Shown one piece after another: positions 25,921 through 28,190 of a DNA stretch of 32,000 nucleotides. The position numbers and the translations under genes are program-made. Source of the stretch: an uncultured archaeon (GTDB lineage: Archaea > Asgardarchaeota > Thorarchaeia > Thorarchaeales > Thorarchaeaceae). The first letter of the stretch is position 1. Each line of letters begins with the position of its first letter. The stretch lies in the NCBI GenBank assembly GCA_964354495.1, contig CAYHAA010000004.1, forward strand, positions 30,001 through 62,000. Reading direction: 5' to 3'. The notes beneath the pieces are model-generated. The model did no database searches. It saw only the letters and a program-made list of their open reading frames with translations, and was not told the origin of the DNA.

Positions 25921-27162
25921 ATGAGCAACAACTTGGAATATCATAACGAAGATGCAGTCGAACTAGACTCAGCTGAGGGCGATGTCGTGATTCGAAACTG
26001 CAGAACACTGAGGCCAAAGAAGGGCAAGGAAATCACAATTGGCGGAGCGCTCATTGTCTATGAGGAATTGTCTGTCGAAGGAGACCTTCGATGTGATCGA
26101 CTCGAGTTGAAGACGAGAGACCGTGTGGTCGTCAATGGGAGTCTCTATGTCGCCAAATCCATTGATGCAAGAAAGGGCTCTATCGAGGTGGAAGACAACC
26201 TCGAGGCTCGAGATATCGATGCGGGTGCCACATTGAGAGTTGGTGGCAACCTAAAATGCATCGCTGCAAAAGCAGGTGCTTCTGTTGCAGTTCAAGGAGA
26301 TGCTGAGGCCCAGAGATTGACTGGAGGCGGCTCAGTCAAAGTCGGAGGTCTCTGCAAGGTCGAGAGAGTTTCTGGCGGAGGTTCTGTGTCAGTTGAAGGC
26401 AGGATTGAAACAGACGAGCTAGATGCTGGCGGCTCAGGGAAAGCCGTGGATGGCACCATCAAGAAAGTATCAGTAGGTGGTAGTTTCAAGGCAGAAGGAG
26501 CCATTGTGATAGATGATCTTGATGTCGGAGGCTCTGCAAGCGTTGGTCCTGGCTCCAAGGTAAGGAATGTCGATATCGGTGGAACTTTCAGAGCAGAGGG
26601 AGACCTCGAGTTCGGTGCTATCGATGTAGGCGGCACAGTGAAAATAGAAGGCAACGCGCACGGCGACTCAATAGATGTTGGAGGCACTGTGAAAGCAGAG
26701 GGAGACCTCACACTGGCCCAGGGACTCGATGTTGGAGGGACCGTCGCGGTTGATGGAAACCTGAAATGCGACGACAAGATTAAGGTCGGTGGAACAGTCA
26801 AAGTCGAAGGCAGAATAGACACCTTCCGAATAATAGTCGGAGGAGAGATCTCTGCTTCCTACATCAAGGCAACAGATGGATTCAGAATTGGCAAGCGTGC
26901 AGAGGTCAGCGGATTTGTCGAGTCAAGGGAGATTCTCATACGGGAACGTGCGAGAACCGACTCACTATACGGTGATGACATCAGAATTGAAGAACGTGCC
27001 CGAGTAGGCAGTATCTATGGACACAAGATCTACATCGAACGAGATGTCATTGTAGAAGGCAAAACCCTCTACACGGAGAGTATTGAGTCAGAAAGTGGTG
27101 TTCAATTCAAGGAAGAGCCCAGAAAAGTGGATGCACTCCCGCCTCCGGAGCAGCTCAAGTAG
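25921..27162 (+). CDS. Long polymer-forming cytoskeletal (bactofilin-like) beta-helix repeat protein
   Basis: Many 17-18 aa repeats of the type xxxDxIDVGGTVKxEG across about 400 aa; no signal peptide. Confidence 0.8.
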   Translation: MSNNLEYHNEDAVELDSAEGDVVIRNCRTLRPKKGKEITIGGALIVYEELSVEGDLRCDRLELKTRDRVVVNGSLYVAKSIDARKGSIEVEDNLEARDIDAGATLRVGGNLKCIAAKAGASVAVQGDAEAQRLTGGGSVKVGGLCKVERVSGGGSVSVEGRIETDELDAGGSGKAVDGTIKKVSVGGSFKAEGAIVIDDLDVGGSASVGPGSKVRNVDIGGTFRAEGDLEFGAIDVGGTVKIEGNAHGDSIDVGGTVKAEGDLTLAQGLDVGGTVAVDGNLKCDDKIKVGGTVKVEGRIDTFRIIVGGEISASYIKATDGFRIGKRAEVSGFVESREILIRERARTDSLYGDDIRIEERARVGSIYGHKIYIERDVIVEGKTLYTESIESESGVQFKEEPRKVDALPPPEQLK

Positions 27163-27221: not shown

Positions 27222-28190
27222 CTACTTTCGTCTTTTCTTTTTTAGAAGTAGTATTCGTCTACTGCTGTCTATATCGTATGGCGAACTATCAAACTCGCCC
27301 GATTCTGAAATGACCTCGAACCCAGACTTTCGTACAAGCAAATCAGCCTCCACATCGGAGATAAGGGCTGCTCCAGACGTGGCTTTGACAGTCTCGACTA
27401 TTGAACCATCGGCACTCCTGACGATGTACTGGAGATCCACCCGCAGTATTCTGTGATCGCTATCTGAAGAGATCTTGCCATGTCGCTCGACCGTTCTACT
27501 GTTCGCGATGCTTACAGGCAGATCTTCGAATCTCGCATGCGCATACTGCACTTCCCTGTTGTACAAATCAAGGATAAACAGCCCGTTCTCGCTCATATGT
27601 TGTCGAACACAACGGAGACATGCAAGTTGCGCCTCTGTCGTCATAGCGTGACCAAACGAGTTGGGGATGATGATGAGTGAGAATCTCTGCTTCATCTTGA
27701 ATTGCTCCATGTTTGCCTGGACGAGTGTAATACGTCTAGAAACGGGGAGTGGTGCTTGCTGCAATTTGCGCCTAAAAGCAGCAAGCATAGAGGGTGAGCA
27801 ATCCAATGCAACTACTTCAAACCCCTCACGAGCTAAGGCAAGACTGACCGTTCATTGTTAGTTGGACAAACTTGGACATCAGAGTGCTGTCCGCCCAGGA
27901 AACGGCACTGGGCTCGACTCCGTGAGGACAGAGTTCATGTCAGGTCATCCTCACAGGATTGGTCTGTACTGGACTATATAAGCACCTGTCCAACTTTGTC
28001 CAAGTCTCTTGCAGCTGTTGTCAACCCTTCCGGTGCCTGCTGCAACATCAAGGATGGGCGAGCCCATCTTTTCCGCGTGCCATATGTAGAAGGGAATGTC
28101 AGAATCGTCTGTGAATAGGTCGTAGAACTCTCCGACACCATCATAGCCAGGACTCAGACCCGAGAAGAGGTCCTCTTTTTCTTCAGGCAC
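27222..28190 (-). pseudogene. Class I SAM-dependent methyltransferase interrupted by a 174-bp insertion
   Basis: Joining 28190-28027 to 27849-27222 gives a 263-aa ORF with intact ILDVAAGTGRVSLALAREGFEVVALDCS; the insert adds five in-frame stops. Confidence 0.9.
27850..28023. mobile_element. Non-autonomous 174-bp insertion element (MITE-like), flanked by ACC on both sides
   Basis: Empty site reconstructs exactly; ACC at 27847-27849 and 28024-28026; subterminal inverted repeats TTGGACAAA(C/G)TTGGACA at 27862-27878 and 27987-28003 (16/17 identical). Confidence 0.85.

What the first reader, a model, noticed from the sequence alone, without database searches (positions are those of the whole stretch)
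27847..28026. 174-bp mobile element inserted precisely into methyltransferase motif I; IS607-like end architecture
Seen: removing 177 bp restores GGA AGG GTC AGT (G-R-V-S) in frame. Both junctions carry GGT on the minus strand. There are no terminal inverted repeats, but each end has two STTGGACA units at 10-bp spacing, inverted between ends, 12 and 20 bp from the termini. No transposase is encoded. Known: IS607-family serine transposases recombine at a GG core and bind arrays of short direct repeats inside the ends; IS110/IS1111 also use a short core with subterminal repeats. Inference: a recent non-autonomous element mobilised in trans, possibly a new MITE family.
Basis: partly seen in the sequence, partly recalled or inferred. 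Interest (0 to 1): 0.82.

Follow-up and report, generated by a model that had tools for sequence, protein, structure and literature searches.

The report
IS607-type mini-transposon carrying a guide-RNA scaffold
A 177-base jumping element with no gene of its own has split a methyltransferase gene in an Asgard (Thorarchaeota) archaeon. It is a cut-down copy of an IS607-family transposon and keeps the two ends the transposase needs, plus what looks like the guide-RNA scaffold of the transposon's TnpB nuclease.

Summary
Window 27847-28026 holds a 177-bp insert in motif I of a class I SAM methyltransferase. The closest relative's ortholog is intact and reads GGAAGGGTCAGT at that spot, exactly as predicted.

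- **Copies:** about 20 copies of 176-212 bp lie in this 3.3-Mb Thorarchaeota genome, plus longer deletion derivatives.
- **Parent:** a 3.2-kb relative on contig C24 shares the ends. It encodes an IS607-family serine transposase (MerR-type HTH plus resolvase domain) and a TnpB nuclease.
- **Junctions:** four empty sites and 25 junction pairs show no terminal inverted repeats. They share a GG (usually GGT) core and a target of about (A)GGG(T). In one case only GG is shared, which fits serine-recombinase crossover rather than a 3-bp duplication.
- **New here:** the right-end 110 nt derive from the 3' end of tnpB. They form a four-helix pseudoknotted RNA with strong covariation across 57 copies from 13 genomes. 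A conserved TATA-like box precedes it. This is probably a stand-alone omega-RNA gene.
- **Distribution:** the module occurs in 16 of 26 genomes of the same family and in 0 of 124 genomes of other families of the phylum.

This scan had already found the same element family on other DNA of this genome. Verdict: a new member of a known kind.

The parts
27847..28026 (-). Whole non-autonomous IS607-type element, including the GGT at both junctions. It is 177 bp if one GGT is counted. The minus strand reads left end (LE) to right end (RE), the same sense as tnpA and tnpB in the parent and as the interrupted methyltransferase.
   Evidence: Empty site in G012. Boundaries seen as loose ends of other copies.
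28025..28026 (-). LE-side copy of the GG crossover core. It is preceded in the flank by AG, giving 5'-AGGG, and followed by T (28024), the first base of the LE.
   Evidence: Of 25 junction pairs, all have G at -1 and 17 have A at -2. Empty sites.
27983..28024 (-). Left end. A 20-bp terminal stretch is followed by two TTGGACA motifs (minus strand; plus-strand TGTCCAA at 27987-27993 and 27997-28003) at 10-bp spacing. These are the presumed TnpA-binding sites.
   Evidence: The same layout is conserved in all copies and in 12 autonomous tnpA-bearing copies. IS1535 has the same layout, with LE motifs starting 20 bp from the end (PMC6188088).
27975..27982 (-). Conserved TATA-like box CTTATATA (minus strand), about 22 nt upstream of helix P1. 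It lies where autonomous copies carry TTTATCAG/TTTATTAG 23-24 nt before the tnpA ATG.
   Evidence: Alignment of 28 full-length copies: the box and its distance to P1 are conserved while the spacer sequence varies. Autonomous LEs. Promoter function is inferred.
27923..27953 (-). Helix P1 of the RE-half RNA (UGAGGAUG / UGUCCUCA). Its loop GACAUGAA is homologous to the tnpB codons for the RuvC-III motif (GCACGGAAC).
27880..27922 (-). Helix P2 (CGGAGU at 27917-27922 with ACUCUG at 27880-27885). It encloses helix P3 (GCCCAG at 27908-27913 with CUGGGC at 27893-27898) and the 5' strand of pseudoknot P4 (GGACA, 27888-27892).
   Evidence: Compensatory changes in P2 (A-U to G-C in 12 copies, also C-G) and in P3 (C-G to U-A, G-C to U-A).
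27850..27878 (-). Right end. It holds two TGTCCAA motifs (minus strand; plus-strand TTGGACA at 27862-27868 and 27872-27878) and a 12-bp terminal stretch ..CTAACAATGAAC. The RE-proximal motif (27864-27868) is also the 3' strand of pseudoknot P4.
   Evidence: P4 covaries G-C 31 / U-A 13 / C-G 9.
27848..27849 (-). RE-side copy of the GG core; the RE ends ..AACGG. The T at 27847 comes from the target.
   Evidence: The RE ends ACGG in 54 of 61 copies. The next base is T in 57 of 61 and C in 4 of 61.
28027..28190 (-). 5' fragment of the interrupted class I SAM-dependent methyltransferase gene, up to ..ILDVAAGTGR(V) of motif I.
27222..27846 (-). 3' fragment of the same methyltransferase gene (SLALAREGFEVVALD.. 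to the stop). It is otherwise undamaged.
   Evidence: Pfam Methyltransf_25/11/12. 89% identity to the intact G012 ortholog.

Best explanation
The insert is a non-autonomous deletion derivative of an IS607-family transposon of Thorarchaeota, a 'mini-IS' or MITE in the loose sense. It keeps about 55-60 bp of the left end and about 115 bp of the right end.

**Mobility (inferred from the family).** The serine-recombinase TnpA encoded by autonomous copies elsewhere in the genome binds the helically phased TTGGACA motifs in both ends and pairs the ends. It excises the element as a double-stranded circle and integrates it by a 2-bp staggered crossover at a GG core, in a target of about 5'-(A)GGG(T). 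This makes no target duplication and needs no terminal inverted repeats. One such event put this copy into motif I of a methyltransferase gene and inactivated it. That happened after the split from the nearest sequenced relative.

**RNA module.** The right-end half is the former 3' end of tnpB. It encodes a structured RNA with helices P1-P3 and pseudoknot P4 that ends ..AACGG at the transposon boundary. I take this to be the omega-RNA scaffold of the element's TnpB nuclease. In the mini-element the TATA-like box that drives tnpA in full copies sits about 22 nt upstream of P1. Each copy would then be a small self-contained guide-RNA gene whose guide is the host sequence next to its right end. 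TnpB made in trans would use it to cut the vacated site (TAM-like AGGG plus flank) and so favour retention of the copy, as shown for bacterial IS605 and IS607.

**Shown here:**
- the insertion and its empty site;
- the copy family;
- the shared ends with tnpA/tnpB-bearing elements;
- the GG/GGT junction rule;
- RNA covariation and its strand bias.

**Inferred:**
- trans-mobilisation by TnpA;
- promoter activity;
- loading of the RNA into TnpB;
- homing.
For: **Copy family.** The genome holds 14 copies of 176-189 bp and 5-6 of 190-212 bp, plus 381-bp and 488-bp derivatives, all with unrelated flanks.

**Parent.** G000:C24:10671-13864 has the same ends. Its LE reads GGGT..TTTGACAAAGTTGGACA. Its RE reads TGTCCAAGTTTGTACAACTTACAATGAACGG directly after the tnpB stop.
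- TnpA: Pfam Resolvase 2e-21 with an N-terminal MerR/HTH_17 domain; NCBIfam IS607 family transposase 160.5 bits (cutoff 110); best PDB matches 3ILX, 6DGC, 3LHK and 6DGB, with the catalytic serine aligned.
- TnpB: Cas12f1-like TNB domain; guided_TnpB at 7.8e-21.
- A second intact tnpA lies on C22.

**Empty sites (4).**
- Methyltransferase in G012.
- G000:C1:35963 and G000:C17:51800, which are empty where G012 has copies.
- G012:C37, which is empty where G000:C1:289799 has a copy.
- At C17 the target is CACAG-GG-CGCG, and the junctions share only GG.

**Junction statistics.** The LE flank has G at -1 in 25 of 25 and A at -2 in 17 of 25. The RE ends ACGG in 54 of 61. Position +1 is T in 57 of 61, and +2 to +5 are variable.

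**Match to experiments on the family.**
- CboIS607 needs a GG core, has target and TAM TGGG, and its omega-RNA ends UCGG. About 40 bp of LE and 60 bp of RE suffice, and 6-7-bp inverted motifs are required (10.1101/2023.11.20.567912).
- IS1535 LE motifs start 20 bp from the end, and its two RE motifs lie at bp 10-28 (PMC6188088).

**RNA.** The alignment has 57 copies from 13 genomes.
- 94% of cells are paired.
- 10 pairs show changes on both sides.
- 83 cells are compensatory.
- 0 of 500 shuffles reach any measure, and slid controls give 34-46% paired.
- RNAalifold independently finds P1-P3.
- G-U pairs number 135 on the tnpB-sense strand, against 26 A-C.
- The covariance model also hits the 3' ends of tnpB genes at C24, C1:7862-7970 and C3:77035-77147.

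**TATA-like box.** Its conservation and spacing are shown.
Against: - No transposition, circle junction or RNA was observed directly.
- The nearest autonomous copy in this assembly is not the direct parent. Its ends are only 78% (LE, 32 nt) and 87% (RE, 67 nt) identical to this copy, and the middle of the element has no BLAST match to it.
- Helices P1 and P2 are well formed in the mini-elements but weak or differently registered in tnpB-linked copies, where the sequence also codes for protein. So the mini-element RNA might not be interchangeable with the native omega-RNA.
- No Rfam family matches.
- The only RNA-library evidence is one 256-nt, low-depth contig from a related strain. It runs from inside the LE through the RE into the methyltransferase gene. 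It shows neither a start at P1 nor an end after a guide, and it could be DNA carry-over.
- The crossover dinucleotide could be GT instead of GG, if the 4 of 61 GGC junctions are mismatch products.
Confidence: 0.9

Rival explanations
1. A DDE-transposase MITE that duplicates a 3-bp target, always GGT.
For: GGT is present at both junctions of this copy and of most copies. Three of the four empty sites share all three bases.
Against: - There are no terminal inverted repeats, and the ends are asymmetric.
- Elements with the same ends carry a serine recombinase and no DDE transposase.
- One empty site shares only GG, and 4 of 61 right junctions read GGC.
- Two more bases outside the 'duplication' are conserved only on the left side (AG), which a duplication does not explain.
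Confidence: 0.02
2. The element family is moved by the large Cas1-like protein ('aCas1') that accompanies TnpB in long Asgard elements, as proposed in the literature for aCas1-TnpB loci, and not by the serine TnpA.
For: - Altae-Tran et al. 2023 (PMC10691335) suggest that aCas1 is the transposase of aCas1-TnpB loci. They describe a variable region after a conserved T downstream of tnpB, which resembles the T at +1 seen here.
- Earlier notes of this scan place these elements in that group.
- A giant ORF lies next to tnpA in a relative.
Against: - The junctions follow the IS607 rule in detail: GG core, no duplication, phased subterminal motifs, and AGGG against ACGG.
- From my own knowledge, Cas1-type integrases make long target duplications. 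None is seen here.
- tnpA sits at the LE of every long copy examined.
- I did not confirm a Cas1 domain in the giant ORF; Pfam found nothing.
Confidence: 0.04
3. The element is an IS607-type mini-transposon, but the conserved right-half structure is not a TnpB guide-RNA scaffold. It could be another RNA, for example a regulatory or antisense RNA, or a structure that helps transposition.
For: - P1 and P2 are much better formed in the mini-elements than in tnpB-linked copies.
- No expression data, TnpB-binding data or Rfam match exist.
- The P4 3' strand overlaps a TnpA-binding motif, so some of the constraint is at the DNA level.
Against: - The RNA occupies the position of known omega-RNAs: the 3' end of tnpB through the RE, ending at the boundary with ..CGG.
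- It has a pseudoknot, as solved TnpB omega-RNAs do (my own knowledge).
- Covariation and G-U bias point to an RNA on the tnpB-sense strand.
- IS607 transposition uses double-stranded DNA and needs no hairpins.
Confidence: 0.25
4. The segment is a native part of the gene or an intron that is removed from the RNA.
For: The insert length is a multiple of three, and the rest of the gene is undamaged.
Against: - The closest ortholog lacks the segment precisely.
- It carries an in-frame stop.
- It is one of about 20 dispersed copies, in genes and between them.
- It is too small for a group I or II intron, and no intron family matched.
Confidence: 0.01

Closest known systems
IS607-family insertion sequences (IS607, IS1535, ISC1926/ISC1904, the Clostridium botulinum IS607-type IStron)
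   Same: - The parent has a serine-recombinase TnpA with an N-terminal MerR-type HTH, plus TnpB.
- There are no terminal inverted repeats and no target duplication.
- There is a GG core at both junctions.
- Short phased subterminal motifs start about 20 bp inside the LE and about 12 bp inside the RE.
- The target 5'-AGGG contrasts with the RE end ..ACGG, mirroring TGGG against TCGG in the C. botulinum element.
   Different: - This copy has lost both genes and is 177 bp long.
- The host is an Asgard archaeon.
- The target motif has A instead of T at -4 and a strong T at +1 (57 of 61).
- Long relatives carry a giant extra gene between tnpA and tnpB.
PATE-like non-autonomous IS200/IS605 elements that encode omega-RNAs (Meers et al. 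2023, PMC10055086), and the laboratory 'mini-IS' of CboIS607
   Same: - They are protein-less elements made of an LE and an RE.
- They are mobilisable in trans.
- The RE part carries the guide-RNA scaffold, which a TnpB encoded elsewhere would use.
   Different: - Those natural cases are tyrosine-transposase (IS605) elements with hairpin ends. This one is a natural IS607-type (serine) case.
- In two full-text searches and the papers opened, I found no paper describing natural IS607-derived mini-elements.
- Here a TATA-like box from the tnpA side appears to be joined to the scaffold.
Asgard aCas1-TnpB loci (Cas1H-Asgard groups of Altae-Tran et al. 2023, PMC10691335)
   Same: - The host group is the same.
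- TnpB has a conserved T followed by a variable stretch downstream.
- The loci are flanked by repeats.
- Earlier notes of this scan assign the long relatives of this element to that group.
   Different: - That paper proposes aCas1 as the transposase. The junction rule found here points to the IS607 TnpA instead.
- I did not verify the Cas1 assignment myself.
Classical archaeal and bacterial MITEs (DDE-transposon derivatives)
   Same: They are small, non-coding and multi-copy, share ends with an autonomous element, and can fold into a long hairpin.
   Different: - This element has no terminal inverted repeats and no target duplication.
- The inverted repeats here are subterminal protein-binding motifs.
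- The interior is a conserved structured RNA rather than filler.

Membership tests
IS607 family (tested on the element family and its autonomous copies) | Transposase is a small serine recombinase with inverted domain order: an N-terminal MerR-like HTH and a C-terminal catalytic domain. | tested here: met
   L031:1146-1748 has HTH_17/MerR at residues 1-50 and Resolvase at residues 65-196. NCBIfam NF033518 scores 160.5 bits against a cutoff of 110. The best PDB hits are IS607-family TnpA domains, with the Ser of YGRFSG aligned to YARVSS.
IS607 family | No terminal inverted repeats; asymmetric ends. | tested here: met
   the termini TTGACAACAG.. and ..CTAACAATGAAC do not match. Only the subterminal motifs are inverted.
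IS607 family | No target-site duplication; the same core dinucleotide (GG) at the target and at both junctions. | tested here: met
   Four empty sites and 25 junction pairs plus 61 right ends were examined. One site shares GG only. A GT core is not strictly excluded.
IS607 family | Several short, roughly helically phased subterminal motifs that bind TnpA. | tested here: inconclusive
   The motif pairs are present and conserved in mini-elements and autonomous copies, with the layout of IS1535. Binding itself was not tested.
IS607 family | Excision as a double-stranded circle and re-integration catalysed by TnpA. | not testable with these tools
   This needs PCR for the RE-GG-LE circle junction, or an in vivo assay.
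Non-autonomous derivative (MITE / mini-IS) | Short, without a transposase gene, multi-copy, with ends shared with an autonomous element in the same genome. | tested here: met
MITE in the strict sense | Terminal inverted repeats and a target-site duplication. | tested here: not met
   The name MITE therefore applies only loosely.
TnpB omega-RNA (reRNA) | Encoded at the 3' end of tnpB through the RE, on the tnpB-sense strand. The scaffold ends at the transposon boundary and is followed by a variable flank. | tested here: met
   The model R1 hits the 3' ends of tnpB at C24, C1 and C3. The P1 loop is homologous to the RuvC-III codons. ACGG is followed by variable sequence. The G-U bias favours the sense strand.
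TnpB omega-RNA (reRNA) | Conserved secondary structure supported by covariation. | tested here: met
TnpB omega-RNA (reRNA) | Expressed, bound by TnpB, and able to direct TAM-dependent cleavage. | not testable with these tools
   The only trace is one ambiguous metatranscriptome contig. No Rfam family covers it.

The most novel reading that the evidence does not exclude
Each mini-element is a mobile, self-contained guide-RNA gene. A deletion fused the tnpA promoter (TATA box) of an Asgard IS607-type transposon to the TnpB omega-RNA scaffold. One stretch of DNA then serves both as a TnpA-binding site and as the 3' strand of an RNA pseudoknot. Dozens of such copies per genome, across at least 11 Thorarchaeial genera, would load a trans-encoded TnpB with guides against their own vacated sites (TAM AGGG). 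The mini-elements would thus borrow both the mobility and the retention machinery of the parent. It would also mean that the serine TnpA, not the proposed aCas1, moves the Asgard aCas1-TnpB element group.
Probability: 0.45. Interest if true: 0.65.

Novelty: new member of a known kind. Interest (0 to 1): 0.5.

Why it matters
**Target rule.** The element gives a clean natural set of IS607-type junctions and empty sites in Asgard archaea. This fixes the target rule, (A)GGG(T) with a GG core, and the exact right-end boundary for a TnpB group whose guide and transposase were left open in the literature (PMC10691335).

**Guide-RNA genes.** It shows that IS607-type elements, like IS605 ones, spawn protein-less derivatives. 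These keep a covarying guide-RNA scaffold, here seemingly with its own promoter. That yields a compact candidate scaffold of about 107 nt and a predicted TAM for an archaeal TnpB, both directly testable.

**Annotation.** It explains a split methyltransferase gene and many small repeats in Thorarchaeota genomes, some of which break assemblies.

Tried and rejected
- **Rfam:** scans of the window region and of the parent gave nothing above noise, only snoRNA-like hits at E above 2.
- **Public reads:** I looked for an empty-site allele of the methyltransferase in other samples. No joint across the element was seen. Junction-spanning contigs are present in three DNA studies, so the insertion looks fixed there. 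One low-depth RNA-library contig (27745-28000) bridges the right junction but shows no ends, and I draw no conclusion on expression from it.
- **More empty sites:** an empty-site search for the copy at G000:C8:16899 found no orthologous flank in G012. The G012 copy L057 lies in a 359-bp composite indel and could not be used. One flank of the G012 copy L053 had no match in G000.
- **Middle of the element:** BLAST of positions 55-112 against autonomous copies found nothing. The homology to the tnpB 3' end became visible only in the multiple alignment.
- **Giant ORF:** Pfam found no family in the giant ORF next to tnpA in a relative. The 320-aa ORF of the C24 copy matches that ORF's tail only weakly (E 0.001, 21% identity).
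- **Whole-element hairpin:** the fold of the whole element as one long hairpin (z = -3.5 and -2.6 on the two strands) only reflects the inverted binding motifs, so I did not use it as evidence.
- **Readings rejected:** IS110/IS1111-type, DDE-type and intron explanations (see rival explanations).
Full report
**Observation.** The minus strand of window 27222-28190 encodes a class I SAM-dependent methyltransferase (Pfam Methyltransf_25/11/12). Its motif I is interrupted..ILDVAAGTGRV is followed by 177 foreign bases and then SLALAREGFEVVALD... The junctions read GGAAGG GT|TGACAAC.. and ..AATGAACGGT|CAGTCTT. The insert has no terminal inverted repeat. It carries TTGGACA twice at 10-bp spacing near each end, inverted between the ends, 12 and 20 bp inside the GGT.

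**Is it an insertion?** Yes. The closest relative genome among those searched (G012, same genus) has an intact 267-codon ortholog, 89% identical in the part compared. It reads ..GGCACTGGAAGGGTCAGTCTTGCC.. at that point, exactly the predicted empty site.

**Is it a repeat family?** Yes. BLAST, an nhmmer profile and a covariance model find about 20 full copies of 176-212 bp in this 3.3-Mb, 51-contig genome.
- They are 70-98% identical to this one and have unrelated flanks.
- Derivatives of 381 and 488 bp also exist, and several copies are cut by contig ends.
- The copy at G000:C1:289799 is 98% identical to this one and is also empty in G012.
- Two other copies (C6:71215, C3:18835) are shared with G012 at orthologous sites, so the family has been active over a long time.
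- Record titles of the transposase's relatives identify the host group as Thorarchaeota, Asgard archaea.

**Parent.** One long member, G000:C24:10671-13864 (3.2 kb), has the same ends and three ORFs.
- The first ORF (200 aa) has a MerR/HTH_17 domain followed by a Resolvase domain. It meets NCBIfam's IS607 family transposase model at 160.5 bits against a cutoff of 110. Its nearest solved structures are the IS607-family TnpA catalytic domains 3ILX, 6DGC, 3LHK and 6DGB, with the catalytic serine aligned.
- The last ORF (504 aa) is a TnpB (Cas12f1-like TNB domain; guided_TnpB at 7.8e-21). By my reading of its sequence, all three RuvC motifs are visible.
- The RE (..TGTCCAAGTTTGTACAACTTACAATGAACGG) begins right after the tnpB stop.
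- The LE (GGGT..TTTGACAAAGTTGGACA, then TTTATCAG) lies 23 nt before the tnpA ATG.
- Twelve tnpA-bearing copies from this and other Thorarchaeota show the same LE plan.
- A second intact tnpA lies on C22.
- The middle ORF of the C24 copy has no Pfam match. It weakly resembles the tail of a giant ORF next to tnpA in a relative. This agrees with earlier notes of this scan that the C24 copy is itself a deletion derivative of an about 8-kb element.

**Junction rule.**
- In 25 junction pairs the base before the left GG is always G, and the one before that is A in 17.
- The right end is ..ACGG in 54 of 61 copies. The next base is T in 57 and C in 4, and the bases after that vary.
- Four empty sites are available. 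In three, target and junctions share GGT.
- At G000:C17:51800 the target is CACAG-GG-CGCG and the junctions are CACAGGG|TATG.. and ..GAACGG|CACG, so only GG is shared.
- This fits a serine-recombinase crossover at a GG core in a target of about (A)GGG(T). It does not fit a 3-bp duplication.
- A GT core with occasional mismatch products cannot be strictly excluded.

**Comparison with experiments on the family.**
- The C. botulinum IS607-type element strictly needs GG and prefers 5'-TGGG. Its omega-RNA and RE end ..UCGG, with position -3 separating target from self. It needs only about 40 bp of LE and 60 bp of RE, and it depends on 6-7-bp inverted motifs (10.1101/2023.11.20.567912).
- Here the pair is AGGG against ACGG.
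- IS1535 TnpA binds phased motifs that start 20 bp from the LE end and two motifs at bp 10-28 of the RE (PMC6188088). That is the same spacing as here.

**The right half is a conserved RNA.** I aligned the last 110 nt of 57 copies from 13 genomes.
- The alignment shows three nested helices and a pseudoknot. P1 is UGAGGUUG/UGACCUCA. P2 is CAGAGU/ACUCUG. P3 is GCCCAG/CUGGGC. P4 pairs GGACA, which lies inside P2, with the RE-proximal UGUCC.
- The pair count gives 94% paired cells, 10 pairs with changes on both sides and 83 compensatory cells. None of 500 shuffles reaches any measure. Partners slid by 1-3 columns give only 34-46% paired.
- P4's central pair occurs as G-C (31), U-A (13) and C-G (9), while the LE motifs stay TTGGACA. 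This covariation therefore cannot be a change in protein-binding specificity.
- RNAalifold finds P1-P3 on its own.
- G-U pairs outnumber A-C by 135 to 26, or 53 to 24 without the two constitutive wobble columns. This places the RNA on the tnpB-sense strand, which is the window's minus strand.
- The P1 loop (GACACGAA) aligns with the tnpB codons of the RuvC-III motif (GCA CGG AAC). P3 lies in the last codons of tnpB in every tnpB-linked copy.
- The covariance model hits the 3' ends of the tnpB genes on C24, C1 and C3.

So the mini-element is LE plus the last 115 nt or so of the parent. That stretch is where TnpB omega-RNAs are encoded. I take it to be the omega-RNA scaffold, at about two in three odds.

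**A promoter-like box.** All 28 full-length copies aligned keep (C/T)TTA(T/A)ATA just inside the second LE motif. About 20-22 variable bases follow before P1. Autonomous copies carry TTTATCAG/TTTATTAG at the same place, 23-24 nt before the tnpA start codon. The deletion that made the mini-element therefore seems to have put the tnpA promoter in front of the scaffold. This is inference from sequence only.

**Distribution.** By DNA search, the element is in 13 of 24 other genomes of the genus and in none of 16 genomes outside it. It was in 0 of 124 genomes of other families of the phylum among those searched.

**Public reads.** Contigs spanning flank and element are present in three DNA studies, and no empty-site joint was seen. 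Contigs of other copies diverge from the window at 27847 and at 28028-30, which confirms the boundaries. One low-depth metatranscriptome contig bridges the right junction, and I draw nothing from it.

**Known or new?**
- IS607 biology, trans-mobilisable mini-IS constructs and omega-RNA-bearing PATE-like IS605 derivatives are published.
- In two full-text searches and the papers opened, I found no paper describing natural IS607-derived mini-elements.
- For the Asgard aCas1-TnpB group, the literature proposes aCas1 as transposase and leaves the guide boundary open.
- This scan had already reported the same family on other pieces of this genome (e1-5383731 and e1-5383732). My analysis reached the same filing independently. 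It adds the GG-only empty site, the covariation analysis with the pseudoknot, the TATA-like box and the family-wide distribution.

**Verdict.** Observation confirmed; interpretation supported; a new member of a known kind. Confidence is 0.9 for the IS607-type mini-element and about 0.65 for the omega-RNA reading. Interest is 0.5.

Noticed in passing
G000:C24:10671-13864 (locus L031:1072-4265), outside the window: The 3.2-kb tnpA/tnpB element carries a 320-aa ORF on the opposite strand between the two genes. It has no Pfam match. It weakly resembles residues 1010-1209 of a giant ORF (at least 1327 aa) next to tnpA in a relative (L068:4602-8585). This fits earlier scan notes that the copy is a deletion remnant of an about 8-kb element.
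   Followed up: partly
G000:C8:82271-87351, outside the window: Three full mini-elements and one solo right-end module (83829-83926, abutting the left end of a neighbouring copy) lie within 5 kb. This may be a local hotspot, or insertion of elements next to each other.
   Followed up: no
L057:712-1070 (G012:C16): A copy of the mini-element sits inside a 359-bp insertion relative to G000:C3:186042, with about 90 bp of unrelated sequence on each side. This may be a composite or nested insertion.
   Followed up: no
G000 contig ends: C42:1-94, C6:152723-152816, C35:10552-10606, C25:77-110, C36:14-47, C8:122130-122163: Six contig ends stop inside copies of this element family, so the repeat breaks the assembly. 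A second long copy seems split between C22 (tnpA and middle ORF) and another contig.
   Followed up: partly
window 25921-27162 (+): A 413-aa ORF just downstream of the methyltransferase gene, on the opposite (plus) strand, is made of many short G-rich repeats (..VGGSVK.., ..DVGGTVK..). It looks like a bactofilin-like or beta-helical repeat protein.
   Followed up: no
window 27745-28000: A 256-nt contig (depth 3.2, 96% identical) from a sediment metatranscriptome library covers the right junction and most of the element. It may be read-through from the methyltransferase promoter or DNA carry-over.
   Followed up: partly
RE +1 position of 61 copies (for example window 27847): The first host base after the right-end GG is T in 57 of 61 copies. 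This may be the 'single conserved T' that Altae-Tran et al. 2023 saw upstream of the variable region downstream of Asgard aCas1-linked tnpB.
   Followed up: partly
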